A stretch of DNA of 64,000 bases from an uncultured Gammaproteobacteria bacterium (GTDB taxonomy: Bacteria; Patescibacteriota; Patescibacteriia; Magasanikbacterales; GWA2-37-8): the NCBI GenBank assembly GCA_964641245.1, contig CAZXML010000001.1:229460-293459 (forward strand). The letters are read 5' to 3'. A program made the position numbers and the translations under genes. The number at the start of each line of letters is the position of its first letter. Positions within the stretch are counted from its first letter, which is position 1. The notes below the pieces were generated by a model that saw nothing but the letters and a program-made list of their open reading frames with translations, did no database searches and was not told the DNA's origin. Below are positions 3,590 through 60,845 of this stretch, piece by piece.

Positions 3590-3751
3590 TTTGTCATTGC
3601 GACCCGTCAAGCGGGGAAGCAATCCTATCCACAGCTCACTCACTCTCTCCCCTACAAGGGGAGAGATAAAGAGAGGGGTTTATCGTTAAAATGTTAGCTT
3701 AACAACAACCAAAACCCCCTCTACTGTTCTCCCCCTTATAGGGGGAGAAAC
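3590..3751. repeat. Composite of repeat-element fragments (family B end, GC-hairpin fragment, two family C GGGGAGAG hairpins).
   Basis: The region contains tgtcattgcgac...gcaatcc and caagcggggaa. It also contains ctctctcccctacaaggggagag...gaggggtttatcg and cccctctactgttctcccccttatagggggagaaacc, which match pieces found at 36272, 32251 and 47041. Confidence 0.6.
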
Positions 3752-5715: not shown

Positions 5716-6867
5716 TTAAACAATATTCCGTAACGCCAAACCAATGGCCACGGACATGCGCGGCCCTATTTGGCGCAAAATCGGTTTCAACCCCTCCTGA
5801 TATACGACTCTGGCCCAAGAATCTCCTACATATGTTTTAATTTTAAATTTTTCTTGAATATACTTTGCCAGAAACGGCATCAAGGCCATTCCGCCGGTTA
5901 AAATAATTTTTTCGGGGCGCTTGCCTTCATTGCCGGTTTGACGCAAATATAATTCCAAACTGACTTCTACCTCCTTCATTATAGGATCTACCACCGGCAT
6001 TAAAATGTCCAGCCATTTTTGTTCGGTTAATATATTATTACTGGTCGCGGCCAGATAGTCAAATAAATCATGCTTAGCCTGCTCAACTAGATCGCGTTCA
6101 ACCCCTAAAATATTTTGTAAAACCTTGTCTATTTTATCGCCACCCGATTCTATGCTTTGATGAGTAATTGGCATGCCCTGGTCTATTATAAAAAAGTTTG
6201 TGCGTTCGGAACCGATGTCTATTATCATAGATAACGCCTGATCCCTGCCAACCAAACATCGAGACAAGGCCGTTGATTCGGGTTCCAACGCCTCTAAAGA
6301 CAATCCGGCGCGCTGGAAAATTTTGGAATAAAATTCTATGAGTTTATGCGGTACGGCATTTACCAAAACCCGCTGTGATTTATCTTCGGGCAAACCTTTT
6401 AACACCTGATAATCCAAGGCCATTTCTTCTAAAGGCATGGGCAATAATTTTTTTACTTCCGCTTTAACAATATGATCTAGTTCTTCTTTCTTTAATATAG
6501 GAAGCGTAACCACCGCGTGAAAAACAGATGAAACCGGCAGGCTGACAACCGCAGTTTTGGATATTATTCGAGACGATTTGCAAATCGCCTTAAGAGTGTT
6601 CGCGTATTTTTCTATTTGCGCCTCGTTGTCACCCTCCCCTTTTAGGGGAGGGACAGAGGGTGGGGTATTCGCGGAGTTTTGTTTCTCTAAAAGACCGGCG
6701 ATATTTTTTTCTTCATTGGCCGCAAGTTTATGGATATCCTGTTTGCCGGATGTTAAACCGTACGAAAACAAAACCGGCCTGTTTTTTTCCAGGCGTAATT
6801 CTACTAATTTTATTCCCCCGGACCCGATGTCTACTCCGAGAAAGGATTTTGGTTTATTCCAAAACAT
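5716..6867 (-). CDS. pilM: Type IV pilus assembly ATPase-fold protein PilM.
   Basis: N-terminus FLGVDIGSGGIKLVELR has an actin-like/PilM fold with acetate-kinase-like phosphate loops. It contains an in-frame ~45 nt repeat-derived insertion (NTPPSVPPLKGEGD). Confidence 0.75.
   Translation of the reverse strand: MFWNKPKSFLGVDIGSGGIKLVELRLEKNRPVLFSYGLTSGKQDIHKLAANEEKNIAGLLEKQNSANTPPSVPPLKGEGDNEAQIEKYANTLKAICKSSRIISKTAVVSLPVSSVFHAVVTLPILKKEELDHIVKAEVKKLLPMPLEEMALDYQVLKGLPEDKSQRVLVNAVPHKLIEFYSKIFQRAGLSLEALEPESTALSRCLVGRDQALSMIIDIGSERTNFFIIDQGMPITHQSIESGGDKIDKVLQNILGVERDLVEQAKHDLFDYLAATSNNILTEQKWLDILMPVVDPIMKEVEVSLELYLRQTGNEGKRPEKIILTGGMALMPFLAKYIQEKFKIKTYVGDSWARVVYQEGLKPILRQIGPRMSVAIGLALRNIV
6628..6675. 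repeat. Family C (GGGGAGRG hairpin) element copy lying in-frame inside pilM.
   Basis: ccctccccttttaggggagggacagagggtggggtattcgcgg aligns with 47050 (ctctccccttttaggggagagacagagagaggggtatcgcgg). Confidence 0.65.
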
Positions 6868-11422: not shown

Positions 11423-11535
11423 TTGTCATCCTGAACGTAGTGAAGGATCTCTGTCCGTCGTTTTTTTGCAAACCAGACAGAGATTCTTCTCCGTCCCGCC
11501 TAGGCAGGCGGATCAGAATGACAATTGACGAAACC
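11423..11535. repeat. Family A TGTCAT-type palindromic element (MITE-like).
   Basis: ttgtcatcctgaacgtagtgaaggatctctgtc...gacagagattcttc...cagaatgacaa. Confidence 0.8.
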
Positions 11536-12096: not shown

Positions 12097-12164
12097 TGTC
12101 ATGCTGAACTTGTTTCAGCATCTACACACAAGACTAAAGATCCTGAAACAAGTTCAGGATGACA
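12097..12164. repeat. Family A' twin-hairpin element (TGTCATGCTGAA...TTCAGGATGACA).
   Basis: tgtcatgctgaacttgtttcagcatct...agatcctgaaacaagttcaggatgaca. A direct copy lies at 14725-14790 and a third at 34243-34304. Confidence 0.85.
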
Positions 12165-14718: not shown

Positions 14719-14724
14719 TTAATT

Positions 14725-14790
14725 GTCATGCTGAACTTGTTTCAGCATCTGCTTAAGAACGAAAGATCCTGAAACAAGTTCAGGATGACA
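14725..14790. repeat. Family A' element, direct copy of 12097-12164.
   Basis: tgtcatgctgaacttgtttcagcatct...agatcctgaaacaagttcaggatgaca. Confidence 0.85.
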
Positions 14791-14796
14791 TTGCGT

Positions 14797-16383
14797 ATGA
14801 GTACGATCTACCGTAAATACCGGCCTCAATTATTTAGTGATATTGTTGGGCAACAGCATATTATAAAAACGGTTATTAACGAAATAACTGCCGGTAAGAT
14901 AGCGCACGCCTATCTTTTTTGCGGTCCCCGCGGAACGGGGAAAACCACTTTGGCCAGATTGCTCGCCAAGTCCATAAATTGCGCAAACAGAAAAGAAAAA
15001 GACAGCGAGCCGTGCGGTACGTGTTCGTCGTGCGCGGAGGTTACAGACGGCCGCAATATAGATGTGATAGAAATAGACGCGGCGTCGCACACGGGCGTAG
15101 AAAATATGCGCGAAAATATTATAGAAAACGCGCAATTTAAACCCACCAAATCAAAATATAAAGTATTTATCATCGACGAAGTGCACATGCTTTCCACCGG
15201 CGCCTTTAACGCGTTACTTAAGACGCTGGAAGAACCGCCCGCCCACGTAATTTTTATTCTGGCCACTACCGAACAACAAAAACTACCGGCCACCATTATT
15301 TCCCGCTGTCAGCGTTTTAATTTCAAAAGAGTCGGCTATGAAGATATGATGAAACGTCTGGGCGAAATTTGTAAAAGTGAAAAAGTAAAAGTAGACAAAG
15401 AAGTTTTGGAACGCGTTATAAATAAAAGCGATGGCTGTATGCGCGACGCCGAAAGTTTGCTAGGGCAAGTATTAAGTTTGGATTTGAAGAGCATTAGCCC
15501 GGAAGACGCGGAAATGATTTTGCCCACCTCCGGCATTCAAACAGTGCTGGAGTTTATAAATTTTATTTTAGAGAAACAAACCGCGGAAGCCATAAAAATG
15601 ATTCAAAATCTGGTTTCAGACGGCGTGAACCTGGAACAATTTGCTTACGATACACTGGAGGCTCTGCGACTTCTTATGATTCTACAGGTTGATCCACAGG
15701 CCAAAAATATCAACACCGATTACAGCGATGAGGCTCTAAAATCACTCAAAAAAACCGGTCTTAAAATTTCCGCCCAACATTTGGTAAAAATGATTGAAGC
15801 GTTAATTATCCGACGTCGGGATATTAAGTCATCGCCAATGCCGCAATTGCCGTTGGAGCTGTTTGTGGTGGAGTTTACGTGCGCTCCTGACCGCCACTTC
15901 GACGACACACCGATTGTCATTCTGACGAAGGAAGAATCTATACCGATAAAAAAAAATAGTATAGATCCCTCGTCGGCTACGGCCTCGCTCGGGATGACAA
16001 ACAATACAATCACCCAAACCATAAAAGACACCATCTCCAACCTTACCCACAAGCAAATTAAAACCACTTTAGAGGACATAAAAGCAAAATGGAATGACGT
16101 TATCCGGGAAATTTCCAAGGAAAACCATTCCCTTAGTTTCATTTTAAAAATGAGCAATCTTTTGGCTGTAGACGATGATGGTCTTAAAATCTCCGTCCCC
16201 TACTCTTTCCACAAAGATAAGCTGGAAGAAAATAAAACCAAAAAAACCATAGAACAGACCCTGACGAACTTTTTTTCGGAACGCATATTTTTACAATGCG
16301 AGGTTGTAGAAAGCCGGGTACAAACAAATAACGATGACGACTTAAATAAATTGGCTGCGGACTTTGGAGGGAATGTTGTATGA
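14797..16383 (+). CDS. dnaX: DNA polymerase III subunit gamma/tau.
   Basis: MSTIYRKYRPQLFSDIVGQQHI is followed by the Walker A GPRGTGKTT, the zinc module CGTCSSC and the DEVHML box. The ATG at 14785 lies within the repeat (ggATGACA), so the second ATG at 14797 is preferred. Confidence 0.9.
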   Translation: MSTIYRKYRPQLFSDIVGQQHIIKTVINEITAGKIAHAYLFCGPRGTGKTTLARLLAKSINCANRKEKDSEPCGTCSSCAEVTDGRNIDVIEIDAASHTGVENMRENIIENAQFKPTKSKYKVFIIDEVHMLSTGAFNALLKTLEEPPAHVIFILATTEQQKLPATIISRCQRFNFKRVGYEDMMKRLGEICKSEKVKVDKEVLERVINKSDGCMRDAESLLGQVLSLDLKSISPEDAEMILPTSGIQTVLEFINFILEKQTAEAIKMIQNLVSDGVNLEQFAYDTLEALRLLMILQVDPQAKNINTDYSDEALKSLKKTGLKISAQHLVKMIEALIIRRRDIKSSPMPQLPLELFVVEFTCAPDRHFDDTPIVILTKEESIPIKKNSIDPSSATASLGMTNNTITQTIKDTISNLTHKQIKTTLEDIKAKWNDVIREISKENHSLSFILKMSNLLAVDDDGLKISVPYSFHKDKLEENKTKKTIEQTLTNFFSERIFLQCEVVESRVQTNNDDDLNKLAADFGGNVV

Positions 16384-23395: not shown

Positions 23396-23518
23396 ATTAA
23401 GCTTTCTTTCTGCCTCCTCTATATCTTTGGCAATGGTCGCGCCGGTTTCTACCCGCTTTATCGCCTTTAAGTGTTCCTTTATTTTATCCTCTTCAGTACT
23501 GTTTGGAGAAATTTGTTA

Positions 23519-23624
23519 GGAACAGCCACTTAAGCGAGTTGGGATGTGTCATATGCCGGTACTTTACCCTGCTTCAGGAGCTTTACCGAGAAGCGCGGGG
23601 TGTTACCGATGTATCTCATCTTCT
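23519..23624. mobile_element. Solo left-end remnant (~106 bp) of the IS481-family element, inverted relative to the full copy at 36961.
   Basis: Its reverse complement matches 36961-37070 at ~93% identity, including the first 12 codons of the transposase (MTHPNSLKWLFL). No transposase body follows. Confidence 0.75.
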
Positions 23625-23631
23625 GCATTAT

Positions 23632-23690
23632 CCACAACTAAAACCTCCCCGGTTAAATCAGGGAGGTTTTAGTTGTGGCTCTATTTTTTA
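23632..23690 (+). terminator. Perfect 18-bp-stem hairpin followed by a T-run.
   Basis: ccacaactaaaacctccc cggttaaatca gggaggttttagttgtgg ctctatttttta. It abuts the IS-end remnant and the GGDEF gene stop. Confidence 0.55.
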
Positions 23691-28357: not shown

Positions 28358-28460
28358 TGTCATCCTGAATGTAATGAAGGATCTCTGTCTCAATCGCCAA
28401 ACGGACAGAGATTCTTCGCTTCACTCAGAATGACAAATGACGTGTGACCTGAATGACAGT
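28358..28460. repeat. Family A TGTCAT-type element.
   Basis: ttgtcatcctgaatgtaatgaaggatctctgtctcaatcgccaaacggacagagattcttcgcttcactcagaatgacaa differs by 1 nt in the core from the copy at 60740. Confidence 0.85.
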
Positions 28461-29201: not shown

Positions 29202-29315
29202 TTGTCATCCTGAATGAAATGAAGGATCTCTGTCCGTTTAGCTGTCATTCCCATAACAATGGGAATCCAGACAATCATCGATTCGACTGGATTCCCGCTT
29301 TGGCGGGAATGACAA
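29202..29315. repeat. Family A half-element fused to a family E element (TGTCATTCCC...GGGAATGACAA).
   Basis: cttgtcatcctgaatgaaatgaaggatctctgtc is followed by tgtcattcccataacaatgggaatcc...ggattcccgctttggcgggaatgacaa. Confidence 0.75.
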
Positions 29316-31113: not shown

Positions 31114-31223
31114 TTGTCATTCTGAGTGAAACGAAGAATCTCTGTCTGGTTGGCCAACGCGATACTGACAGATATCCTTCACGGAGTTTACACTGAACGC
31201 AGTGAATGTGTTCAGGATGACAA
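31114..31223. repeat. Family A-related TGTCAT element (divergent).
   Basis: ttgtcattctgagtgaaacgaagaatctctgtc...tgttcaggatgacaa. Confidence 0.7.
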
Positions 31224-31232
31224 TCGATGATG

Positions 31233-32198
31233 TTATACGTCCCACTTAAAACCATTGCCGTAGCTACCCCACTCGGCGGTTTTTTCGAATTGGGGTTGGC
31301 GGAGTTCCAGGAAATCTATTATTCCCTGCGGGGATAAATCATAACCGGATATGGAAAAATCTACAGCTTCGTTGGTGGTTGGGCGGGTGACGGAAACCAT
31401 AACCGGTTGTTTTTTGCCGATGGCGTAAGCCAGCTTAACCATCACTTCTCCGCCAACTTTTTTCACCGCGTCTACCGCTATTTTGCGCGCCATATAGGCG
31501 CCACTGCGGTCTACTTTGGTGCCGTCTTTGCCGGAATAGGCGCCACCGCCAACCGGAACTTGCGGGCCATAAGCGTCACAAATAATTTTTCGGCCGGTGA
31601 CGCCGGTGTCCGCGTCAAATCCGCCGATGTCCCAATCGCCGGCCGGGTTGGCGTAGATGGATAATTCGGAATCCACTTCTTTGCCTTTAAACCATTCAAA
31701 AATTATATCGCGCAGTTCGGAAGATTTTGCTTTGTGAAAACTGGCCACCACGCTGCAGATTTTTCCGTCGCGCAATGTGATTTGAGTTTTTCCATCATTG
31801 GGGAATTTGGCATAGATTAATTTGTTTAAATTCCGCGCCAAATATAATTCTTGTGGAACGAATTCTTCGTTTGCGTCGCAGGCATAGCCAACCATTATTC
31901 CCTGATCGCCCGCCCCGCCTACATCCACTCCTTGGGCAATCTCTGAACTCTGTTGAACAATATTTGTATTCACCTGATATTGTTCGCCGGCCACGCGCTT
32001 GGCAATTTGCGCGGCGTCGATTTTTGCGTTAGTGGTAAGTTCGCCGGTAAGAGTGATAAGTCCGTGACCGCCCATGCTTTCCATAGCCACCCGGCTATGC
32101 GGATCCTGTTCTAAACAAGCGTCTAAAATAGCGTCCGATATTCTGTCGCAAATTTTATCCGGGTGACGCGGCGAAACCGATTCGGCTGTGATGAGCAT
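31233..32198 (-). CDS. metK: S-adenosylmethionine synthetase (compact, 321 aa).
   Basis: ESVSPRHPDKICDRISDAILDA, GAGDQGIMVGYA, TGRKIICDAYG and GGGAYSGKDGTKVDRSGAYMAR are present. Confidence 0.9.
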   Translation of the reverse strand: MLITAESVSPRHPDKICDRISDAILDACLEQDPHSRVAMESMGGHGLITLTGELTTNAKIDAAQIAKRVAGEQYQVNTNIVQQSSEIAQGVDVGGAGDQGIMVGYACDANEEFVPQELYLARNLNKLIYAKFPNDGKTQITLRDGKICSVVASFHKAKSSELRDIIFEWFKGKEVDSELSIYANPAGDWDIGGFDADTGVTGRKIICDAYGPQVPVGGGAYSGKDGTKVDRSGAYMARKIAVDAVKKVGGEVMVKLAYAIGKKQPVMVSVTRPTTNEAVDFSISGYDLSPQGIIDFLELRQPQFEKTAEWGSYGNGFKWDV

Positions 32199-32351: not shown

Positions 32352-32569
32352 ATTGACCTCGACCGAACAAATAAATTAAACAAAAAAACTTTCCTTGGCA
32401 GGAAAGAAAGTCGACCTTTATCTTTCCCCGTTGGGGCTAGATTTGGCACCTTATCCCGACTAAGTCGGGACAGGTTGTCGGCAGGTCTTAGGGCTAGTTC
32501 CCTCGCTGCACTCTTGATAACTATATCGTACCAGGTATTTCTTAATTATCAAAAAATACCTGGGGATAA

Positions 32570-34242: not shown

Positions 34243-34304
34243 TCATAGTTGTCATGCTGAATTTATTTCAGCATCTAATCGGTATAGATCCTGAAACAAG
34301 TTCA
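34243..34304. repeat. Family A' twin-hairpin element.
   Basis: tgtcatgctgaatttatttcagcatct...agatcctgaaacaagttcaggatgac. Confidence 0.8.
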
Positions 34305-34312
34305 GGATGACG

Positions 34313-34713: not shown

Positions 34714-34795
34714 TTGTCATCCTGAATGAAATGAAGGATCCCTGTCTCAATCGACAATGACGGACAGAGATTCTTCGCTTTGCTCAGAATGACAA
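34714..34795. repeat. Family A TGTCAT-type element.
   Basis: ttgtcatcctgaatgaaatgaaggatccctgtctcaatcgacaatgacggacagagattcttcgctttgctcagaatgacaa. Confidence 0.85.
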
Positions 34796-34808: not shown

Positions 34809-35429
34809 TTATACCATGTCCGAACCCAATTGATCCTCAATCAACTTCTTAACTTCCACCAAATCTCCATCCGTTAAATCCGGAATTATTTTGATAAAAT
34901 TATTGTAAATAACTTTCATGTTAGCCACTTTAATATCTTGCTTATACTGCTGACTGATATCGGAGAGCAGGAGTTGAGTTTTGGAAGGGCTGGCGATATT
35001 TAAAATTTCCAGAACAAACTGCTGGCTTTTGGTTTGAATGGCGATGCCGCCAAAATTAAATAAACTTTGGGCGATACCTTTTTTTCTGACGACCACATCT
35101 TTTACATCCAAATAACTGACGGATGAAATAATTTCATCAAACCAGCCCAGCCGGTGAATATCCACCACCCGGTCGCTGGTGATAACCAAAACATTTACGT
35201 GGTTTAAAAACCAGGTGCGTAAAATTATATAAAGTCCAATAAACATTCCCAACCCGTAAACTATATTCCCCCACCAGCCATAGAAAAAAAGGCGGAACAT
35301 AAAAAAAGACGAGGCAAATAAAAATATCAGACCGAGTAAATACTTCCAGGCATAAGCCGCCACGTGGGGCGCGATTACGGAAATAATTTTTTCATCTTCT
35401 TTCAGGTGGATTTTTTTGGCAATGGACAT
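34809..35429 (-). CDS. Membrane protein with a bacterial PH-like domain (YdbS/YdbT-like).
   Basis: Two N-terminal TM helices are followed by a ~100-aa beta-rich domain, matching the bPH_2 architecture. Confidence 0.5.
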   Translation of the reverse strand: MSIAKKIHLKEDEKIISVIAPHVAAYAWKYLLGLIFLFASSFFMFRLFFYGWWGNIVYGLGMFIGLYIILRTWFLNHVNVLVITSDRVVDIHRLGWFDEIISSVSYLDVKDVVVRKKGIAQSLFNFGGIAIQTKSQQFVLEILNIASPSKTQLLLSDISQQYKQDIKVANMKVIYNNFIKIIPDLTDGDLVEVKKLIEDQLGSDMV

Positions 35430-35472: not shown

Positions 35473-35577
35473 TTGTCATCCTGAACGGAGTGAAGGATCT
35501 CTGTCCGTATAGTTTTCACCAACCAGACAGAGATTCTTCGCTTTGCTCAGAATGACAGTTACGTACGGGATGACAAT
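35473..35577. repeat. Family A TGTCAT-type element plus an extra terminal fragment.
   Basis: ttgtcatcctgaacggagtgaaggatctctgtc...gacagagattcttcgctttgctcagaatgacag, followed by ttacgtacgggatgacaatgc. It supplies the last 6 codons and the stop of the Mur ligase gene. Confidence 0.8.
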
Positions 35578-36896
35578 GCGGATAACACTTCTCTGGCAAC
35601 ACGGCGGTCATCCCAAACAATTTTCTTTCCCCCGGCCACCGCAATATACGGCTCCGTGCCTTTGGCGGTAATAACCACCACGTCTCCGGCTTGAGCCAAG
35701 GAAACGGCTTTAATTATTGCCTGACGACGGTCCACAATCACAAACAAGTCTGCATTGTCTTTTTTTCCGGACGAACGCGCGCCAACCGCCAGCATTTCGG
35801 CAATTTGTTCCGGATCTTCATCGTAACAGTTCACATCTGTAATTATAACATAATCGGTTAATTTACCTGCTATTTGCCCCATAGATTCTCTTTTGCTTTT
35901 GTCGCGACCGCCGCCGTCGGACCCAACCACCGCAATAATTTTGTGGTCATGACCAACCATTTCACGCAAACTTTTAAACAATTCGGTTAAACTTACGGGT
36001 TCGTGCGCATAATCTACTATCACCTTAAAATTTTGTCCTTCATCAATTAATTCCATTCTGCCCTCCACTAATTTTACGCTCGCCAACCCTTCGGCAATTT
36101 TCTCATCGGAAATTTTCTGCGCCCTGCCCACCGCAATCGCAGCCAGCGCGTTGTAAACGTTAAACCGGCCGATTATATTTAATCTGAATTTTTTGCCACC
36201 GACTGTAAAATCAGAACCATTCTGATCGGAAACGATATTTTCTCCGCTTAATAATTTTGTCGCGCTGTTTTTGTCATTGCGAGGAGCTAAAAGCGACGTG
36301 GCAATCCCATTGTTGGCACTACCAGTACTGTGGGATTGCTTCGCTTTGCTCGCAATGACAGAAAACGCCCACTTCTCCACCGCCGGAAAACTCAAAAAAT
36401 AATCCGCATGCTCATCATCCGTATTAGCAACAATTGTTTTTGCTTTCGCAAAAATTTTGGCTTTGTCTTTTTTTAGATTATCAAATCCACCGTGGCGTTC
36501 CGAATGTTCGGTTCCTAAATTAGTAAACACCGCCGTATGGTAATTCAATCCGATATGCCGGTACTGCAAAATTCCTTCCGAAGATGTTTCCACCACCGCG
36601 TATTTGCACCCGGCTTTTACCATTTGTTTTAATAAACTCTGAATTTTCCCTCGCCCTAGCATGGTCATTTTTTTATCGTTCAGCCAGCGCTTATTGGCCA
36701 CCTGAAATTCTACGGTGCTTAGTAGCCCAACTTTATTTCCTCCCGCTTCTAAAACAGACGCAATAAGCCGGCAAGTGGTAGACTTGCCCTTGGTGCCGGT
36801 TACCCCAATCACAGTTAATTTTCGGGCCGGCCGGCCATACCACCAATAAGCGGACCAGGCCAATAAAAAATGAAGGATTTTCTTAAAAAAAGACAT
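35559..36896 (-). CDS. Mur ligase family protein (MurE-like UDP-N-acetylmuramoyl-tripeptide ligase).
   Basis: VIGVTGTKGKSTT (P-loop), DYAHEPVSL and AKGTEPY motifs are present. It carries a ~30-aa in-frame repeat-encoded insertion (SVIASKAKQSHSTGSANNGIATSLLAPRND). Confidence 0.75.
   Translation of the reverse strand: MSFFKKILHFLLAWSAYWWYGRPARKLTVIGVTGTKGKSTTCRLIASVLEAGGNKVGLLSTVEFQVANKRWLNDKKMTMLGRGKIQSLLKQMVKAGCKYAVVETSSEGILQYRHIGLNYHTAVFTNLGTEHSERHGGFDNLKKDKAKIFAKAKTIVANTDDEHADYFLSFPAVEKWAFSVIASKAKQSHSTGSANNGIATSLLAPRNDKNSATKLLSGENIVSDQNGSDFTVGGKKFRLNIIGRFNVYNALAAIAVGRAQKISDEKIAEGLASVKLVEGRMELIDEGQNFKVIVDYAHEPVSLTELFKSLREMVGHDHKIIAVVGSDGGGRDKSKRESMGQIAGKLTDYVIITDVNCYDEDPEQIAEMLAVGARSSGKKDNADLFVIVDRRQAIIKAVSLAQAGDVVVITAKGTEPYIAVAGGKKIVWDDRRVAREVLSALSSRT
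36272..36360. repeat. Family B element (GTCATTGCGAGGAG...GCTCGCAATGACA) lying in-frame inside the Mur ligase gene.
   Basis: tgtcattgcgaggagctaaaagcgacgtggcaatcccattgttggcactaccagtactgtgggattgcttcgctttgctcgcaatgaca. Intergenic copies lie at 52370 and 53868. Confidence 0.85.
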
Positions 36897-36960
36897 AAAA
36901 TTTATGGCTGATACCTAAAAATTATACCAAAAAAATGGCAAAATGACAAGCTGCATTATG

Positions 36961-38130
36961 TAGAAGATGAGATACATCGGTAACACTCCACGCTTCTCGG
37001 CAAAGCTCCTGAAGCAGGGTAAAGTACCGACATATGACACATCCCAACTCTCTTAAATGGCTGTTCCTGACCAAGGAAAAGCTACCACAGGTTTTTTTCA
37101 GAGACAACCAAAAGAAATTGCTTGCCCATCATGATCGTTGGCGGCGAACCGCAGGCCTCCTTAAATTATCCAAGGGCGCGAAGAGCCGCCTCGAGTGGAT
37201 GATATTTTATGAAACGAAAGGTGAGCGGAATGCTCGTTTAACTGCCAGGCATTTCGGCATCGTTCCCAAGACTTTTTATCAATGGCATAATCGCTTTGAT
37301 GAAGGCGACCTTAAAACGCTCGAAGAGCGTTCACGCGCGCCCGTTAGCAAACGGGTGCGGGAGTACACACCCCTCCAGTATGTCCGGGTAATTAAACTTC
37401 GCAAGGAACATATCCGGTGGGGCAAGATGAAGCTTTTAAAACTGTATCAAGATGACTTTCCAAAAGATGCAACAATTACCAGTTGGAAGGTTCAATGTAT
37501 TATTGAAGTATCCGGCATCTACTACCACCCTCAAAAACAAGCTAGAATCAACCGCAAACGCATATTGTCGGTGAAGCGGAAGAAGATTACTGACCTCGCC
37601 AAAAAACCACGGCAGGGTTTTTTGGTATGTCTCGACACAATCGTGCGTTATGTTGCCGGACAGAAGCGCTACATTTTGACGGCGATTGACCAATACTCAA
37701 AAATTACCTTTGGCCGAATGTACACGACACATAGCTCGGCAAACGCGAGGGACTTTCTTCACCGCCTCCACTATCTGCTTGACGGAAAGATTGAAAACAT
37801 TCAAACTGACAACGGCAGTGAATTCAAATTGCATTTTGATACGGCCTTAACGAAGTTGAATATTCCACACTACCATTCTCGGGTAAGGACACCAAAAGAT
37901 AACGCGGTGAACGAACGGTTCAATCGTACCCTAGATGAAGAATTCCTGGCTATGGGCAATCTGATGGCAGATACCGTTCTTTTTAACCAACGTCTGACTG
38001 AGTGGCTGGTAGAATACAACTTCAAACGTCCGCATCAATCTCTGGGGTATCTACCACCAATTAACTTTCATTTTAAATATCATAAAGTGTTACCGATGTA
38101 CCCGTCTAGTACAACTGATTGACACATCGC
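36961..38130 (+). mobile_element. IS481-family insertion sequence (single transposase ORF).
   Basis: Transposase 37034-38122 (362 aa) has an N-terminal HTH and an rve/DDE core (DNGSEF...RPHQSLGY). An imperfect terminal repeat core TACATCGGTAACACT lies at both ends. The left end is defined by comparison with the remnant at 23519-23624. The right boundary is approximate. Confidence 0.8.
37034..38122 (+). CDS. IS481-family DDE transposase.
   Basis: HTH, integrase core D...D...E region, DNGSEFK and KRPHQSLGYLPP are present. Confidence 0.85.
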   Translation: MTHPNSLKWLFLTKEKLPQVFFRDNQKKLLAHHDRWRRTAGLLKLSKGAKSRLEWMIFYETKGERNARLTARHFGIVPKTFYQWHNRFDEGDLKTLEERSRAPVSKRVREYTPLQYVRVIKLRKEHIRWGKMKLLKLYQDDFPKDATITSWKVQCIIEVSGIYYHPQKQARINRKRILSVKRKKITDLAKKPRQGFLVCLDTIVRYVAGQKRYILTAIDQYSKITFGRMYTTHSSANARDFLHRLHYLLDGKIENIQTDNGSEFKLHFDTALTKLNIPHYHSRVRTPKDNAVNERFNRTLDEEFLAMGNLMADTVLFNQRLTEWLVEYNFKRPHQSLGYLPPINFHFKYHKVLPMYPSSTTD

Positions 38131-44148: not shown

Positions 44149-44859
44149 TTATTTAACGGCTATGGCGATAAGATTCCGTCCGCCTTTTTTATCTGTCCAG
44201 TTTGTTCTCTCGCTGTAGTCAATTTTTTTTATTTTGAATCCGGCTTCTGTTAATAACCCGCTTAATTCTTCTTTGGGAAAATGATGATAATATCTTTCGG
44301 CTAATTGCTCGCCTTCAGGAGTTTTCCAGGGAACCAGAAAATCATTTTCTCCGATTTGCTTCCAACTTTTGTCTATTTTACTTTTTGCCCAATCGCTTTC
44401 CAGATTCCAAACCGTAATAATTAATTTTCCGGACGGTTTTAATTGTTTATAAACATCTTTTAATAATTCCAAACGGCTTTGTTTGTCCGGCAAATGATGA
44501 AACGAAGCAATCATGAAAACCAGATCAAAAAAATCTTTTGAGAAGCTCTTTTTTTTCTTGGCGGTGGAAAAAAATTTTATCCAACCTTCTTTTATTTCTT
44601 TTTGGTAATTTTTTTTCGCGATTTTTAATAATTCATCGCTTTGGTCCGTGCCAATATAATTCACCCGCTTCTCTTTTAACAATAAAACCAACCGGCCGTT
44701 TCCACAGCCCCAATCCAAAATATTCTGCCCGTTTTTTATAAACGGTTTAAACATTTCCAGCTCGCCGGCGTTATTTCTGGTGCTGTCAAAATACCTGGCT
44801 ATACGGTTGTAATCTTCGCGGGTTTTGTGTATAATCTTAGTTGTATCTTTTCTTAACAT
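44149..44859 (-). CDS. Class I SAM-dependent methyltransferase.
   Basis: Motif I ILDWGCGNGRLV in a Rossmann layout. Confidence 0.7.
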   Translation of the reverse strand: MLRKDTTKIIHKTREDYNRIARYFDSTRNNAGELEMFKPFIKNGQNILDWGCGNGRLVLLLKEKRVNYIGTDQSDELLKIAKKNYQKEIKEGWIKFFSTAKKKKSFSKDFFDLVFMIASFHHLPDKQSRLELLKDVYKQLKPSGKLIITVWNLESDWAKSKIDKSWKQIGENDFLVPWKTPEGEQLAERYYHHFPKEELSGLLTEAGFKIKKIDYSERTNWTDKKGGRNLIAIAVK

Positions 44860-46628
44860 GTATGTCTGTTACAGAGGAAATGATTAAATATCTGCTGGCC
44901 AATCCCCCCAAAACGGAGGATGCTTTTGGCGTGGTTTTAAGAAAAATTTTGCGTCAGACCAAAAACGCGCAGGCCAACATTCCCACCAAATCGTCGCTGA
45001 TTAAATCATATCATAAATTGTTAAAACAGCACAAGATTAAAAAGAGTCCGGCGCTGGAAAAAACCTTAATGAAGCGGGCGGTGCGCACTTTGTCCGGCGT
45101 CAGCATTATTACCGTGCTCACCAAACCATTCCCCTGTCCCGGAAAGTGCATTTATTGCCCCACCGAAGCGCGCATGCCTAAAAGTTACATTTCCGATGAA
45201 CCGGCCGCGGCGCGCGCCTTAAGTTTGGCGTTTGATCCTTACCAACAGGTTGTTCAACGCTTTAAGGCTTTAGAAAATAACGGCCACCCCACCGATAAAG
45301 TGGAGTTGATTATTAAGGGTGGAACATGGAATTCGTATCCGATTAAATACCAATACTGGTTTGTTGCCAGATGTTTTGAAGCGTGCAATAATGTAAAATT
45401 TAATGCAGCCAAGCCAAGGGGCGCGCGTTCGGCAGTAGACGAGAAATTTTCTTTGGATAAATTGCGCCAATTGAGTTTCAAAATTCAAAAAGCAAATGAA
45501 AACGGCAAACACCGCCTGATTGGTTTAACCATAGAAACCCGCCCCGATTTTATAAACGCCGGCACTATCGCGGCTATGCGGGAAATGGGTACCACCAGAA
45601 TAGAACTAGGCGTACAAAATACCAATGAAAAAATATTAAAATTAACAAAACGCGGCCATGGCACGGCCGAAGTAAAACGCGCCACCAAAATGCTAAAAGA
45701 TTACGGTTTTAAAGTTGACTACCATTTAATGCCCCAATTGCCCGGAGCGACTCCGGCGACGGATTTAAAAATGATGTTAAAAGTTTTTGACGACCCGGAT
45801 TACCGTCCGGATATGATTAAGGTGTATCCGTGCACGGTGGTGAAAACTTCCGAACTTTACGACTGGCTAAAACGGGGTGAATACAAAACGTATTCAGACC
45901 GCCATTTGATAAACATGCTGAAAAAATTTAAAGTAAAAGTTCCGCGCTACGTGCGCATTTCCCGGTTAATCCGCGATATTCCCGGTCATCATATTCAAGC
46001 CGGAAATAAAATGACAAACTTGCGCCAGGTAATCCAGGAGGAGTTAAAAAAAGAAGGATTAAAATGCAGTTGTCTGCGCTGTCGCGAGGTCGGACATCAA
46101 CACATCGAGTCAAATGTCAAAAGTCAAAAGTCAAAAGTCAAAATGTTTGTAGACAAATACGAAGCCAACGGCGGGACGGAATATTTCTTAAGTTTCGAAG
46201 ATACCAAACGCGACGTTGTTTACGCGTTTTGCCGATTGCGTGTTCTCAAGCCTGTCATCCTGAGCAAAGCGAAGGATCTCTCTCTTTCAAACAAAAGGGA
46301 TTCTTCGGTCACTTCACTCCCTCAGAATGACAACCACAACCTCCCCAACGAAGGAATTAGCGCGGCCGAATTAGTCAAAATGGGCTACCCCGCTTTTATC
46401 CGCGAACTCCATACTTACGGCCAACTTATAAACATTGGGAAAAAAGCCAAAGGGGCTAGCCAGCATATTGGCATGGGCACAAAATTAATTGTTGAAGCGG
46501 AAAAAATCTGTAGAAAAAACAAGGCCTACAAATTAGCCGTAATTTCCGGAGTGGGTGTACGCGAATATTACAAAAAATTTGGCTACAAACTGGAAAACAC
46601 CTATATGGTAAAGACTTTGAAAAAGTAG
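44841..46628 (+). CDS. elp3: Elp3-family radical-SAM/GNAT protein (tRNA uridine-34 modification homologue).
   Basis: CPGKCIYCP radical-SAM cluster motif, LIGLTIETRPDF, and a C-terminal GNAT region (HIGMGTKLIVEAEKIC). A start at 44862 (MSVTEEM) is also possible. It carries two in-frame repeat insertions. Confidence 0.8.
   Translation: MYLFLTCMSVTEEMIKYLLANPPKTEDAFGVVLRKILRQTKNAQANIPTKSSLIKSYHKLLKQHKIKKSPALEKTLMKRAVRTLSGVSIITVLTKPFPCPGKCIYCPTEARMPKSYISDEPAAARALSLAFDPYQQVVQRFKALENNGHPTDKVELIIKGGTWNSYPIKYQYWFVARCFEACNNVKFNAAKPRGARSAVDEKFSLDKLRQLSFKIQKANENGKHRLIGLTIETRPDFINAGTIAAMREMGTTRIELGVQNTNEKILKLTKRGHGTAEVKRATKMLKDYGFKVDYHLMPQLPGATPATDLKMMLKVFDDPDYRPDMIKVYPCTVVKTSELYDWLKRGEYKTYSDRHLINMLKKFKVKVPRYVRISRLIRDIPGHHIQAGNKMTNLRQVIQEELKKEGLKCSCLRCREVGHQHIESNVKSQKSKVKMFVDKYEANGGTEYFLSFEDTKRDVVYAFCRLRVLKPVILSKAKDLSLSNKRDSSVTSLPQNDNHNLPNEGISAAELVKMGYPAFIRELHTYGQLINIGKKAKGASQHIGMGTKLIVEAEKICRKNKAYKLAVISGVGVREYYKKFGYKLENTYMVKTLKK
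46109..46143 (+). repeat. Tandem heptanucleotide repeat (GTCAAAT then GTCAAAA x4) inside the elp3 coding sequence.
   Basis: gtcaaat gtcaaaa gtcaaaa gtcaaaa gtcaaaa, encoding SNVKSQKSKVK. Confidence 0.85.
46264..46332. repeat. Family A TGTCAT-type element inserted in-frame in elp3.
   Basis: tgtcatcctgagcaaagcgaaggatctctctc...ccctcagaatgacaa, encoding VILSKAKDLSLSNKRDSSVTSLPQND. Confidence 0.8.
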
Positions 46629-52369: not shown

Positions 52370-52456
52370 TGTCATTGCGAGGAGTCGTAGCGACGTGGCA
52401 ATCCCATAGTCAGTACTACTAGTATAGTGGGATTGCTTCGCTTTGCTCGCAATGAC
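52370..52456. repeat. Family B element (intergenic, ftsA-ftsZ).
   Basis: tgtcattgcgaggagtcgtagcgacgtggcaatcccatagtcagtactactagtatagtgggattgcttcgctttgctcgcaatgaca. Confidence 0.85.
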
Positions 52457-52586
52457 AGATAAAGTTCCATTGAACACATTTTGTATTCAGCATCCTCTTA
52501 AACAAAACAACGGAGTGGTCTCCGTTGTATAGTTTATAGATAATAGTTTTTACTGTCAAGAAAACAAGTGCACTCTTTGTGTACAA

Positions 52587-53844: not shown

Positions 53845-53955
53845 TGTCATGCCTAGCGAGGTCTTACTGTCATTGCGAGGAGCCGGAGCGACGCGGCAAT
53901 CCCACTGTCGGGACTACCAGTACTTTGGGTTTGCTTCGCTTTGCTCGCAATGACA
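53845..53955. repeat. Family B element with an extra partial TGTCAT end.
   Basis: tgtcatgcctagcgag is followed by tgtcattgcgaggagccggagcgacgcggcaatcccactgtcgggactaccagtactttgggtttgcttcgctttgctcgcaatgaca. Confidence 0.85.
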
Positions 53956-60720: not shown

Positions 60721-60845
60721 ATTGTCATCCCGAGCGAGTGGTTGTCATCCTGAATGTAATGAAGGATCTCTGTCTCAATCGCCGAACGGACAGAGATTCT
60801 TCGCTTCACTCAGAATGACAAGTGGTGTGCGGTCAGAATGACAAA
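60721..60845. repeat. Composite family A element with nested partial ends.
   Basis: ttgtcatcccgagcgagtgg is followed by ttgtcatcctgaatgtaatgaaggatctctgtctcaatcgccgaacggacagagattcttcgcttcactcagaatgacaa, then gtggtgtgcggtcagaatgacaa. Confidence 0.85.

What the first reader, a model, noticed from the sequence alone, without database searches (positions are those of the whole stretch)
46264..46332. Family A repeat inserted in-frame in elp3, encoding a peptide similar to the one in the Mur ligase
The element is read through as PVILSKAKDLSLSNKRDSSVTSLPQNDN within the GNAT half of the Elp3 homologue. Families A and B share the core GCAAAGCGAAG, so two unrelated proteins acquire near-identical VI(L/A)SKAK(D/Q) peptides from opposite strands of related repeats. 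This is a hallmark of repeat-derived protein segments.
Basis: partly seen in the sequence, partly recalled or inferred. Interest (0 to 1): 0.75.

Follow-up and report, generated by a model that had tools for sequence, protein, structure and literature searches.

The report
Hairpin repeat translated inside Elp3
An 80-base palindromic repeat, one of about 16 copies in this window, sits in frame inside the tRNA-modifying enzyme Elp3 of a candidate-phyla-radiation bacterium. It adds a 26-28 residue, probably floppy, loop, a known kind of event (as in Rickettsia) seen here in a new lineage.

Summary
Window 46253-46332 is an 80-nt imperfect palindrome (TGTCATCCTGAGCAAAGCGAAGGATCT ... TCAGAATGACA). 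About 16 such paired elements lie in the window, mostly between genes. This copy is read through in elp3 as PVILSKAKDLSLSNKRDSSVTSLPQNDN.

- **It is an insertion.** In 61 of 120 Elp3 homologues the loop between FCRLR and IRELH is 10-14 residues. Other homologues carry different repeat families at the same loop.
- **It sits in a permissive loop.** The loop is a hairpin loop of the acetyltransferase domain, just before the strand with the catalytic Glu/His. AlphaFold gives it low confidence while the Elp3 fold stays intact.
- **Other genes are affected too.** The MurE-like ligase (36272-36360) holds a sister copy, confirmed against homologues. dnaX (15913-15999) holds another, seen only in the sequence.
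- **The repeat is of a known kind.** Each 27-nt arm is itself a hairpin (7 of 7 pairs covary) with a TGTC head. That matches the "CGTC-tagged REP" superfamily, which includes Rickettsia RPE-4/6 and Neisseria dRS3/NTS.
- **A likely partner enzyme exists elsewhere.** In five other genomes these arms bracket a ~93-aa GIY-YIG (Ssn-like) nuclease gene. None is in this window.

Verdict: a new member of a known kind. Recurrent hot-spot loops give it moderate interest.

The parts
44862..46628 (+). elp3 (radical-SAM/GNAT tRNA U34 cm5 enzyme). The ATG at 44862 gives the 588-aa database protein P0001. The mechanical ORF starts at the TTG at 44841.
   Evidence: Pfam Radical_SAM and Radical_SAM_C. E=1e-120 to solved MinElp3/DmcElp3. 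100% match to P0001. AF2 model matches Elp3 structures at TM 0.88-0.89 normalised to the target.
46253..46332 (.). The inserted element: an 80-nt imperfect palindrome TGTCAT...ATGACA (a TGTC-tagged REP dimer, family A).
   Evidence: Folds as a hairpin at -25.6 kcal/mol, z=-5.1. Only 1 of its 6 frames is open, and that is the frame elp3 uses.
46253..46279 (+). 5' arm: TGTC head, 5-bp stem ATCCT/AGGAT, tandem G.A, GC/GC, AAA loop, CT tail.
   Evidence: Arm alignment and covariation: 7 of 7 pairs with compensatory changes, 95% paired, 0 of 500 shuffles as high.
46280..46296 (.). Spacer (CTCTCTTTCAAACAAAA). The inner stem CTCTGTC/GACAGAG of the intergenic copies has decayed here.
   Evidence: Comparison with the intergenic copies.
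46297..46332 (-). 3' arm. Its reverse complement is TGTC-ATTCT-(19-nt loop)-AGAAT-CCC. The stem is kept and the loop is longer.
46251..46334 (+). Codons of the peptide PVILSKAKDLSLSNKRDSSVTSLPQNDN (P464-N491 of P0001).
   Evidence: AF2: helix 464-476 (10-residue block means 75 for 461-470 and 52 for 471-480), residues 477-493 below pLDDT 50, flanking strands 453-462 and 511-518 confident.
46108..46143 (+). Tandem heptamer array (AGTCAAA x5.1) read in frame as ESNVKSQKSKVKM. This is a second repeat-derived stretch in elp3.
   Evidence: Relatives lacking it read WDEGKAHKPKL there.
36272..36360 (.). Family-B dimer inside the MurE-like ligase gene (35559..36896, minus strand), read as VIASKAKQSHSTGSANNGIATSLLAPRND.
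   Evidence: Absent from most of the 70 homologues displayed (of 120 aligned). Other repeat families sit at the same loop in P0122, P0123, P0127, P0151, P0153.
15913..15999 (.). TGTC-REP dimer inside dnaX (14785..16383, plus strand), read as IVILTKEESIPIKKNSIDPSSATASLGMTNN.
   Evidence: sequence only; not checked against homologues.
28358..28435 (.). Intergenic family-A dimer (reference copy). Others: 11424-11535, 29203-29314 (composite), 30846 (solo arm), 31115-31233, 34715-34794, 35474-35557, 60743-60820.
52370..52457 (.). Intergenic family-B dimer (ftsZ-ftsA spacer). A second is at 53868-53955 (ftsA-dagK spacer). Both spacers lack the element in syntenic relatives.
12097..12164 (.). Intergenic family-C dimer (TGTC-ATGCTGAA-CTTGT-TTCAGCAT, 8-bp stem). 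Others: 14724-14790, 34250-34312.

Best explanation
**What it is.** A gene-less copy of a dispersed hairpin repeat landed inside elp3 and is now transcribed and translated as part of the protein. The repeat is a dimer of two inverted 'TGTC/CGTC-tagged REP' units.

**Anatomy (shown).** Each arm has an unpaired TGTC head and a stem that starts AT. Then come two conserved G.A mismatches, two more pairs, a three-base loop (usually GAA) and a C tail. Two arms face each other across a short spacer, so the whole 80 nt can also fold as one long hairpin.

**Why it is tolerated (shown).**
- GTC...GAC spans 78 nt, a multiple of three.
- The frame in use (VIL...QND) is the only one of the element's six frames without a stop. 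The arms place TGA in the other two sense frames.
- The site is a surface-type loop of the acetyltransferase domain that varies from 7 to 54 residues among homologues.

**Inferred.**
- Insertions elsewhere, or in other phases, were removed by selection. That would leave 3 of about 16 dimers in genes although most of the window is coding.
- The peptide itself is near-neutral filler (a short helix plus a disordered stretch).
- The elements are, or were, mobilised through single-stranded DNA by a small Ssn-type GIY-YIG nuclease. Its gene is bracketed by the same arms in other genomes.
For: **Repeat family and copies:**

**Insertion relative to orthologues:** (61 of 120 have a 10-14-residue loop). 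DNA-level palindromes sit at the same loop in six relatives.

**Presence/absence tracks repeat content of the genome:** L002 has a second copy. L003 and L005 have none in 21 kb each, and their ftsZ-ftsA and ftsA-dagK spacers are empty.

**Translation rather than removal:**
- A single open frame, and it is the one used.
- The orthologous copy in L002 differs by a 6-nt in-frame indel and mostly non-synonymous changes.
- The genic family-B copy is 89 nt, whereas the two intergenic B copies are 88 nt.

**Gene still functional:** all invariant Elp3 residues are present, and the AF2 fold matches solved Elp3.

**Permissive loop:** pLDDT is below 50 for residues 477-493 while the flanking strands are confident.

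**Arm hairpin:** 7 of 7 pairs covary, with 0 of 500 shuffles as high.

**Kind of element:**
- It matches the description of CGTC REPs (head CGTC/TGTC, AT-initiated stem, dimers, in-frame 20-30 aa inserts, RPE-4/6, dRS3) in PMC3733652.
- In PMC11893778 the GTC before the palindrome and the C just after it are the positions that matter most for SsnA. The same positions (G2 T3 C4 and C26) are conserved here.

**GIY-YIG link:** in 5 of 5 loci examined, a ~93-110-aa GIY-YIG gene is bracketed by family-A arms.
Against: - No GIY-YIG or other plausible mobilising gene is in the 64-kb window. The only transposase here (rve, 37034..38122) has unrelated ends. The mobilisation step is therefore an inference from other genomes.
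- The published SRM search pattern finds 0 matches in the window, because the loops of families A and B are longer than it allows.
- No target-site duplication could be defined.
- Among the closest relatives the element replaces an ~11-codon Lys-rich linker rather than adding to it. Insert-bearing proteins are not monophyletic in an NJ tree (0 of 100 bootstraps). The history at this site (one old insertion with losses, or repeated insertions) is unresolved.
- Translation and enzyme activity of the insert-bearing Elp3 were not observed, only inferred.
Confidence: 0.85

Rival explanations
1. The recurrence at this loop reflects site-specific targeting by the element, not only selection for a permissive loop. 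On this view the element repeatedly lands at the same nucleotides of elp3.
For: Window, L002 and L004 carry the element at the same junction (..CC|TGTCAT...ATGACA|A..) and phase. Yet their proteins group with different insert-free relatives. More distant orthologues (L128, L130) also use the xxT-GTC-ATC phase.
Against: - Different families and a different phase (L129, SLRG... frame) occur at the same loop.
- A second Elp3 loop and a MurE loop show the same pattern.
- The NJ tree is weakly supported.
- The phase bias follows from stop codons in the arms.
- An ancestral insertion with later losses explains the shared junction equally well.
Confidence: 0.2
2. The inserted peptide has been co-opted. 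It extends the loop next to the catalytic strand and modulates acetyl-CoA or tRNA handling by Elp3.
For: The loop ends 9 residues before the catalytic Glu. It precedes the strand that leads into the 'acetyl-CoA blocking loop'. About 18 of 120 homologues have recognisably repeat-derived inserts here.
Against: - The peptide evolves faster than the rest of the protein: 16 of 28 residues identical against about 80% overall, mostly non-synonymous changes plus an indel.
- Unrelated repeat families with unrelated peptides occupy the same loop.
- Most homologues do without an insert.
- AF2 confidence is low.
Confidence: 0.07
3. The element is not translated. Either it is removed from the RNA or protein, or elp3 is a decaying pseudogene that merely still has an open frame.
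For: None positive. The element can form a stable RNA hairpin.
Against: - The frame is kept open, and the in-frame indel in the L002 orthologue would not be needed if the segment were removed.
- There are no intein or intron features, and Rfam gives nothing above threshold.
- All invariant residues are intact.
- The same contig was assembled independently in JGI and NCBI data.
Confidence: 0.03
4. The segment is an ancestral part of Elp3, and the intergenic repeats are chance resemblances or derive from the gene.
For: The clade of closest relatives already has a longer loop (33-35 aa) than the 10-14 aa norm.
Against: - 61 of 120 homologues have the short loop.
- The 25-mer arm occurs exactly in more than 120 species genomes across many phyla that have nothing to do with elp3.
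- The insert-free linker of relatives shows no similarity to the element (p=0.08-0.96).
Confidence: 0.01

Closest known systems
CGTC-tagged REPs (Di Nocera, De Gregorio and Rocco 2013, PMC3733652), which include Rickettsia conorii RPE-4/RPE-6 and Neisseria dRS3
   Same: - Unpaired head CGTC, 'changed to TGTC in many repeats'.
- Stem beginning with A-T, T-A, and a short tail.
- Mostly inverted dimers with 20-100 bp spacers that may have complementary ends.
- Mainly extragenic, but some lie wholly inside known genes, where dimers encode 20-30 aa.
- Replication genes are among the targets (dnaX here).
- The same peptide types occur (VIPAKAGI..DSRFRGND in P0049; xHxELVSGS for family C).
   Different: - The paper lists 5 phyla, without Patescibacteria.
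- Its four families have 8-9-bp perfect stems and 4-5-nt loops. Family C and the ATTCCCGC family here fit.
- Families A and B have a 5-bp stem, two conserved G.A mismatches, 2 bp and a triloop (11-12 nt between the outer stems).
- I could not see the paper's Figure 2 consensus, so assignment to one of CGTC-1 to -4 is not tested.
Rickettsia palindromic elements (Ogata et al. 2000, 2002; summarised in PMC10969869)
   Same: Palindromic repeats inserted in frame in unrelated housekeeping genes of a small-genome, host-dependent bacterium. They are read as extra peptide segments judged compatible with fold and function.
   Different: - RPE-1 is ~100-150 bp and unrelated in sequence. Only RPE-4/6 are of the CGTC type.
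- The host here is a CPR bacterium.
- Here different families hit the same loop in many orthologues. I do not know of that being reported for RPEs (own knowledge).
NTS/SRM repeats and Ssn GIY-YIG single-strand nucleases (Nat Commun 2025, PMC11893778)
   Same: - Hairpin with a conserved (C/T)GTC just upstream and a C just after the palindrome.
- A repeat - small GIY-YIG gene - repeat architecture. It was found for family-A arms in L064, L070, L130, L132 and L134.
- Wide phylogenetic spread.
   Different: - The published SRM pattern does not match families A to C (0 hits).
- No ssn-like gene is in the window.
- The GIY-YIG proteins found here were assigned only to Pfam GIY-YIG, not to cd10448.
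- Cleavage was not tested.
- The paper does not describe in-frame insertions in proteins, as far as the passages read show.
REPINs and RAYT transposases (Bertels and Rainey 2011, PMC3116915, PMC3337134)
   Same: Two short hairpin repeats in inverted orientation with a spacer, acting as the replicating unit. Solo arms occur as remnants.
   Different: The head here is TGTC, not GTAG. No RAYT (Y1) gene was seen. REPINs are described as extragenic and lineage-specific, whereas this arm is identical across phyla.

Membership tests
CGTC/TGTC-tagged REP superfamily (PMC3733652) | Short stem-loop unit (20-40 bp) | tested here: met
   27-nt arm. 7 of 7 proposed pairs show compensatory changes, 95% of cells are paired, and 0 of 500 shuffles are as high.
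CGTC/TGTC-tagged REP superfamily (PMC3733652) | Unpaired CGTC (or TGTC) head at one end | tested here: met
   C4 is invariant and G2, T3 are at least 90% conserved. Position 1 is T or C in most arms. There are 35 such arms in the window against 2.1 expected.
CGTC/TGTC-tagged REP superfamily (PMC3733652) | Stem starts with complementary A-T, T-A | tested here: met
   A5-T25 in 35 of 42 arms and T6-A24 in 40 of 42.
CGTC/TGTC-tagged REP superfamily (PMC3733652) | Stem of 8-9 bp and loop of 4-5 nt | tested here: inconclusive
   Family C (8 bp, 5 nt) and the ATTCCCGC units at 29243/29314 (8 bp, 4 nt) fit. Families A and B, including the elp3 copy, have 5 bp + G.A G.A + 2 bp + 3 nt.
CGTC/TGTC-tagged REP superfamily (PMC3733652) | Interspersed, mostly extragenic, mostly inverted dimers | tested here: met
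   About 16 dimers plus solo arms in 64 kb. 13 dimers are intergenic and 3 are in genes.
Ssn-related motif (SRM/NTS) with cognate Ssn nuclease (PMC11893778) | Matches the published degenerate SRM pattern HGTCWYN(0-2)YYVSBRHN(0-5)WNVSBRGN(0-2)RNCYNB | tested here: not met
   0 matches in the window (0.24 expected in shuffles).
Ssn-related motif (SRM/NTS) with cognate Ssn nuclease (PMC11893778) | Conserved GTC before the palindrome and C right after it | tested here: met
   G2, T3, C4 and C26 are at least 90% conserved or invariant.
Ssn-related motif (SRM/NTS) with cognate Ssn nuclease (PMC11893778) | Small single-domain GIY-YIG gene flanked by the repeats | tested here: inconclusive
   Met in other genomes: 5 of 5 loci, in L064, L070, L130, L132 and L134. 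Not found in this 64-kb window. The rest of the genome was not available.
Ssn-related motif (SRM/NTS) with cognate Ssn nuclease (PMC11893778) | Cleavage of the repeat as single-stranded DNA by the nuclease | not testable with these tools
   Needs a biochemical assay.
Rickettsia palindromic elements (RPE) | Palindromic repeat inserted in frame in a functional protein-coding gene at a position compatible with the fold | tested here: met
   This shows it works like an RPE. Sequence membership applies only to the CGTC-type RPE-4/6 class.
REPIN/RAYT | GTAG head and an associated RAYT (Y1 transposase) gene | tested here: not met
   The head is TGTC. None of the 34 window ORFs scanned with Pfam has a Y1 transposase domain.
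MITE | Terminal inverted repeats shared with a parent IS, and target-site duplications | tested here: not met
   No target-site duplication was recognisable. The only IS in the window has unrelated ends.
Any Rfam RNA family | Score at or above the family's gathering threshold | tested here: not met
   Nothing at the repeats. Only sub-threshold miRNA-hairpin look-alikes appear.

The most novel reading that the evidence does not exclude
The TGTC hairpin dimers are miniature, gene-less derivatives of a mobile cassette (arm - ~93-aa GIY-YIG Ssn-like nuclease - arm) that is active across many bacterial phyla, including the CPR. On this reading the cassette, working on single-stranded DNA, repeatedly writes 25-30-residue segments into the same loops of essential proteins (Elp3 at two loops, MurE, DnaX). 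That would give the 'orphan' CGTC REPs their missing mobilising enzyme. It would also make repeat insertion a regular source of loop growth in CPR proteins.
Probability: 0.25. Interest if true: 0.7.

Novelty: new member of a known kind. Interest (0 to 1): 0.5.

Why it matters
In-frame palindromic repeats in housekeeping genes are best known from Rickettsia. This locus shows the same process in a candidate-phyla-radiation bacterium, another small-genome lineage.

The comparison with homologues adds two points:
- The same loops of Elp3 and MurE have been hit again and again by different repeat families. Unexplained insertions in CPR proteins may therefore often be repeat-derived. Annotators and structure predictors can expect such inserts to be floppy filler.
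- The same arms bracket a small GIY-YIG nuclease gene in other genomes. This offers a testable candidate for what moves CGTC-type REPs, a point the 2013 survey left open.

For Elp3 itself, the insert marks a loop next to the catalytic strand that tolerates up to about 50 residues.

Tried and rejected
- **Remnant test.** I tested whether the ~11-codon linker of insert-free relatives is a decayed remnant of the element. Local alignment against 500 shuffles gave p=0.08-0.96, so there is no support.
- **Single-clade test.** I tested whether the insert-bearing proteins form one clade. NJ with 100 bootstraps gave 0 of 100, so the history is unresolved. A first attempt timed out.
- **Blocking-loop idea.** I considered that the insert lies in the 'acetyl-CoA blocking loop'. 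This is rejected: that loop is Dmc 390-406, the next loop downstream.
- **IS at 37034..38122.** I considered the rve transposase as the mobiliser. This is rejected because its ends are unrelated.
- **ORF 34809..35429.** This ORF is flanked by two family-A copies, so I considered it as the nuclease. This is rejected: it looks like a membrane protein and has no Pfam hit.
- **Known RNA families.** Rfam gave none.
- **Literature search by sequence.** Searching for the arm sequence or its peptides gave no paper. No held paper links Patescibacteria with REP, MITE or REPIN.
- **GIY-YIG gene from the window's own contig.** I looked for one among the 120 homologues listed. None carried the 304,216-nt contig length.
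- **3D mapping.** Model coordinates are not exposed, so I could not compute distances from the insert to the active site or the tRNA cleft.
- **Ogata 2002.** The paper could not be read.
Full report
**1. The observation**

Window 46253-46332 reads TGTCATCCTGAGCAAAGCGAAGGATCT-CTCTCTTTCAAACAAAA-GGGATTCTTCGGTCACTTCACTCCCTCAGAATGACA. It lies inside a 595-codon ORF (44841..46628, plus strand). The ORF reads ...FCRLRVLK-PVILSKAKDLSLSNKRDSSVTSLPQNDN-HNLPNEG... across it.

The ORF is Elp3:
- Pfam finds Radical_SAM and Radical_SAM_C.
- It matches the solved archaeal and bacterial Elp3 structures at E=1e-120.
- It is identical to a 588-aa database protein, P0001, that starts at the ATG at 44862.

The repeat is not chance:
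- The 27-nt arm recurs at 34767 and 35530, against 0 expected.
- The core GCAAAGCGAAG has 9 matches at up to 1 mismatch, against 1.6 expected.
- A repeat search groups 9 copies with this arm and shows two sister families.
- A structural definition ([T/C]GTCAT followed by a hairpin whose stem starts AT) finds 35 arms, against 2.1 in shuffles.

**2. The repeat families in the window**

The elements are inverted pairs of arms, TGTCAT...ATGACA, 61-110 nt long.

| Family | Arm pattern | Copies |
|---|---|---|
| A | TGTC-ATCCT-GAnnnnnnnGA-AGGAT-CT | 11424, 28358, 29203 (composite), 30846 (solo arm), 31115, 34715, 35474, 46253 (elp3), 60743 |
| B | stem ATTGC/GCAAT | 36272 (inside a Mur ligase gene), 52370, 53868 |
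| C | stem ATGCTGAA/TTCAGCAT | 12097, 14724, 34250 |

A further dimer lies at 15913-15999 inside dnaX.

All fold as strong hairpins (-26 to -46 kcal/mol, z -3 to -10). The elp3 copy is the weakest of the complete family-A copies, because the inner stem CTCTGTC/GACAGAG has decayed.

Thirteen of about 16 dimers are intergenic.

**3. The elp3 segment is an insertion**

Among 120 homologues, all from Patescibacteria-type metagenome bins, the stretch between FCRLR and IRELH is 10-14 residues in 61. The consensus is I-DKNGLYP-AF. Here it is 52 residues.

I fetched the DNA of relatives. Synteny (methyltransferase-elp3-[NUDIX]-SHMT-...-ftsZ-ftsA) shows they are orthologues.

| Locus | What sits at the loop |
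|---|---|
| L002 | The same family-A element at the same junction. A second copy lies 42 nt after elp3. |
| L004 | A variant (TGTCATCCCGACCGTAGTGGAGGGATCC...) at the same junction. |
| L128 (61% identity) | Another family-A copy. |
| L129 | A family-B copy in a different phase (SLRG...). |
| L130 | Three nested ATTCCCGCGAAAGCGGGAAT-type units. |
| L127 | A different hairpin repeat (CCCCTTAAAAAGGGAGG) that keeps an ..AATGGCAAT end. |
| L003, L005 | No insert, and not one TGTCAT-type element in 21 kb each. |

In L003 and L005 the ftsZ-ftsA and ftsA-dagK spacers also lack the family-B copies present in the window.

It is not met.

**4. Where the insert sits in the protein**

Alignment to DmcElp3 puts RLRV at about residue 365 and AFIRELH at 382-388. 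E386 and H388 are among the active-site residues mutated in the structural work (PMC6367351).

The insert is therefore in the hairpin loop just before that strand. It is not in the 'acetyl-CoA blocking loop' (Dmc 390-406), which is the next loop downstream.

An AlphaFold2 model built with 42 homologues gave mean pLDDT 81 and pTM 0.81:
- Confident strands at 453-462 and 511-518.
- A helix over PVILSKAKDLSLS with falling confidence (10-residue block means 75 for 461-470 and 52 for 471-480).
- pLDDT below 50 for residues 477-493.

The model matches solved Elp3 structures at TM 0.88-0.89, normalised to the target. All residues that are invariant across the 42 aligned homologues, which include this protein, are necessarily present here.

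I could not compute distances to the tRNA or acetyl-CoA sites, because model coordinates are not exposed.

**5. Why the peptide looks the same in unrelated proteins**

In the arm T-GTC-ATC-CTG-A.., one sense phase hits TGA (TCC TGA). In the mirror arm ..T-CAG-AAT-GAC-A another phase hits TGA (GAA TGA).

For the elp3 copy, only one of six frames is open, and that is the frame in use. The span from GTC to GAC is 78 nt.

The Mur ligase copy is 89 nt, so GTC...GAC is 87 nt. Its two intergenic sisters are 88 nt.

The element is a palindrome, so either orientation gives a VI...ND type peptide. The apical GAGCRAAGCGAAG is shared by families A and B. Together these explain VILSKAKD in Elp3 and VIASKAKQ in the ligase.

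The ligase segment is also an insertion. Most of the 70 homologues displayed (of 120 aligned) read ..FGL-NAQNQPN-ILGENI.. there. Five carry other repeat families at the same spot.

**6. Hot spots**

Across the 120 Elp3 homologues, large inserts concentrate at two places.
- **The KAT loop:** 34 sequences. About 18 of these carry recognisable repeat peptides of at least six kinds.
- **A radical-SAM domain loop after residue ~180:** 25 sequences, for example VILNEAKRSEESL, CHPERSEGS, HPELVSGS, LRAPKGRGNP. The model also has low confidence there.

Within the window's own ~80%-identity clade, insert-bearing proteins are not monophyletic in an NJ tree (0 of 100 bootstraps). The element replaces an ~11-codon Lys-rich linker that shows no similarity to it.

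One ancestral insertion with repeated loss, and repeated insertion at one site, both remain possible.

**7. What the repeat is**

*Spread.* The 25-mer GTCATCCTGAGCRAAGCGAAGGATC occurs exactly in more than 120 species genomes. These include Acidobacteriota, Chloroflexota, Bacteroidota, Bacillota, Verrucomicrobiota, Planctomycetota, Nitrospirota, Proteobacteria and Patescibacteria. It is usually one arm of a hairpin ending ..TCAGGATGACA.

*Arm structure.* I aligned 42 distinct arms. They comprise the consensus arm, 27 partner arms from those genomes, which the search pattern did not constrain, and 14 arms from the window and its relatives. All 7 proposed pairs show compensatory changes, 95% of cells pair, and no shuffle or slid register comes close. 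The unpaired G2 T3 C4, the tandem G10 A11/G19 A20 and C26 are the conserved positions.

*Known RNA families.* Rfam has no family for it.

*Match to the literature.* The anatomy fits the 'CGTC-tagged REPs' of Di Nocera et al. (PMC3733652). These have:
- a head CGTC, often TGTC
- stems beginning A-T, T-A
- short tails
- mostly inverted dimers
- some copies wholly inside genes, where dimers encode 20-30 residues
- members that include R. conorii RPE-4/RPE-6 and Neisseria dRS3
- no dedicated transposase known

Their supplementary table lists peptides of the same types seen here: VIPAKAGI, SFPRKRES..DSRFRGND, RHSELVSGS, VIPGLDPGIH...GRVKPGHD.

A 2025 study (PMC11893778) showed that the Neisseria member (NTS, CGTCATTCCCGCGMAVGCGGGAATCYRG) is cut, as single-stranded DNA only, by SsnA. 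SsnA is a 94-aa single-domain GIY-YIG protein. The three bases before the palindrome matter most for cleavage, and the C just after it matters most for binding. The ssnA genes are typically flanked by the repeats.

**8. The nuclease link, tested here**

Scanning all fetched loci for small GIY-YIG ORFs found one in L130, immediately upstream of that genome's elp3. It scores E=2e-16 against Pfam GIY-YIG. tblastn with it found two more, in L064 (Patescibacteria) and L070 (Acidobacteriaceae), each within 100 nt of the family-A arm that had brought the locus in.

In L064 the gene is bracketed exactly: TGTCATCCCGAGGAGGAGCAAAGCGACGACGAAGGATCCCGAC-[gene]-GTCGGGATCCTTCGCTTCGCTCAGGATGACA.

In L130 the bracket carries the same inner stem GGATCTCTGTC...GACAGAGAT as the window's family A.

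Two further homologues from other samples (L132, L134) are bracketed in the same way.

That is five of five loci examined. However, two of them were found because they carry the arm, so the sample is not random.

Against this:
- The window itself has no such gene.
- The published SRM search pattern does not match families A to C.
- The window's rve transposase has unrelated ends.

The statement that the window's elements are gene-less miniatures of such a cassette is therefore an inference.

**9. Verdict**

The event belongs to a known class: in-frame CGTC/TGTC-type REP dimers, working like Rickettsia RPEs. It is now seen in a CPR bacterium.

Three things go beyond the papers I could read:
- the repeated use of the same Elp3 and MurE loops by different repeat families
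- the G.A-containing arm that is identical across phyla
- the bracketing of a small GIY-YIG gene by these arms in CPR genomes

Interest is moderate.

Noticed in passing
window 46108-46143: A tandem heptamer array (AGTCAAA x5.1, 93% matches) is read in frame in elp3 as ESNVKSQKSKVKM, in the linker after the CxxC motif. Period-7 arrays of this kind (AGTATTA, AATTAAC, TTAGAAA and others) are common in the window's intergenic spacers. Several Elp3 relatives carry similar or other simple-repeat peptides at this spot.
   Followed up: partly
window 15913-15999 (dnaX, 14785..16383 +): Another TGTC-type dimer is read in frame as IVILTKEESIPIKKNSIDPSSATASLGMTNN, after domain III of the DNA polymerase III tau/gamma subunit. 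It was not checked against homologues.
   Followed up: partly
window 6624-6666 (pilM-like ORF 5716..6867 -): A copy of a different hairpin repeat (CTCCCCTTTTAGGGGAG type; other copies at 3637 and 47045 are intergenic) lies inside the PilM-like ORF. It reads ..TPPSVPPLKGEGDN.., before the Pfam PilM_2 match begins.
   Followed up: no
Elp3 homologues, after residue ~180 of P0001 (window about 45400-45420): A second insertion hot spot lies in the radical-SAM domain. 25 of 120 homologues carry inserts of 8 aa or more there, many with REP-type peptides (VILNEAKRSEESL, CHPERSEGS, HPELVSGS, LRAPKGRGNP). The window protein has only NAAKPRG there.
   Followed up: partly
L130 5612-5941 (minus strand), just upstream of that genome's elp3: An uncalled 110-aa GIY-YIG gene is bracketed by TGTCAT arms. 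Its C-terminus (..DPDLRQDDS) runs into the arm.
   Followed up: yes
window 36952-38122 and 23512-23634: An IS with an rve (DDE) transposase (37034..38122) lies next to the Mur ligase gene. A 123-nt solo copy of its left end (91% identical, inverted) lies at 23512-23634.
   Followed up: partly
Genome-contig loci L007-L126: The exact 25-mer GTCATCCTGAGCRAAGCGAAGGATC is shared by more than 120 species from many phyla. That is unusual conservation for a dispersed repeat. Many sites hold only a solo arm.
   Followed up: partly
window 32415-32523 (-): A SAM riboswitch (Rfam RF00162, 55.8 bits) lies about 200 nt upstream of the S-adenosylmethionine synthetase gene (31233..32198, minus strand).
   Followed up: no
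window 29203-29314 and 29897: A composite cluster: a family-A arm is followed by an ATTCCC(N8)GGGAAT-type dimer (dRS3-like). A solo arm, TGTC-ATTCCGACCGTAGTGGAGGAAT, is of the variant that sits in the Elp3 loop of L004.
   Followed up: no
GIY-YIG homologues P0241-P0360: Most of the ~93-aa GIY-YIG homologues lie on very short contigs (0.5-3 kb). This would fit genes embedded in repeats that break assemblies.
   Followed up: no
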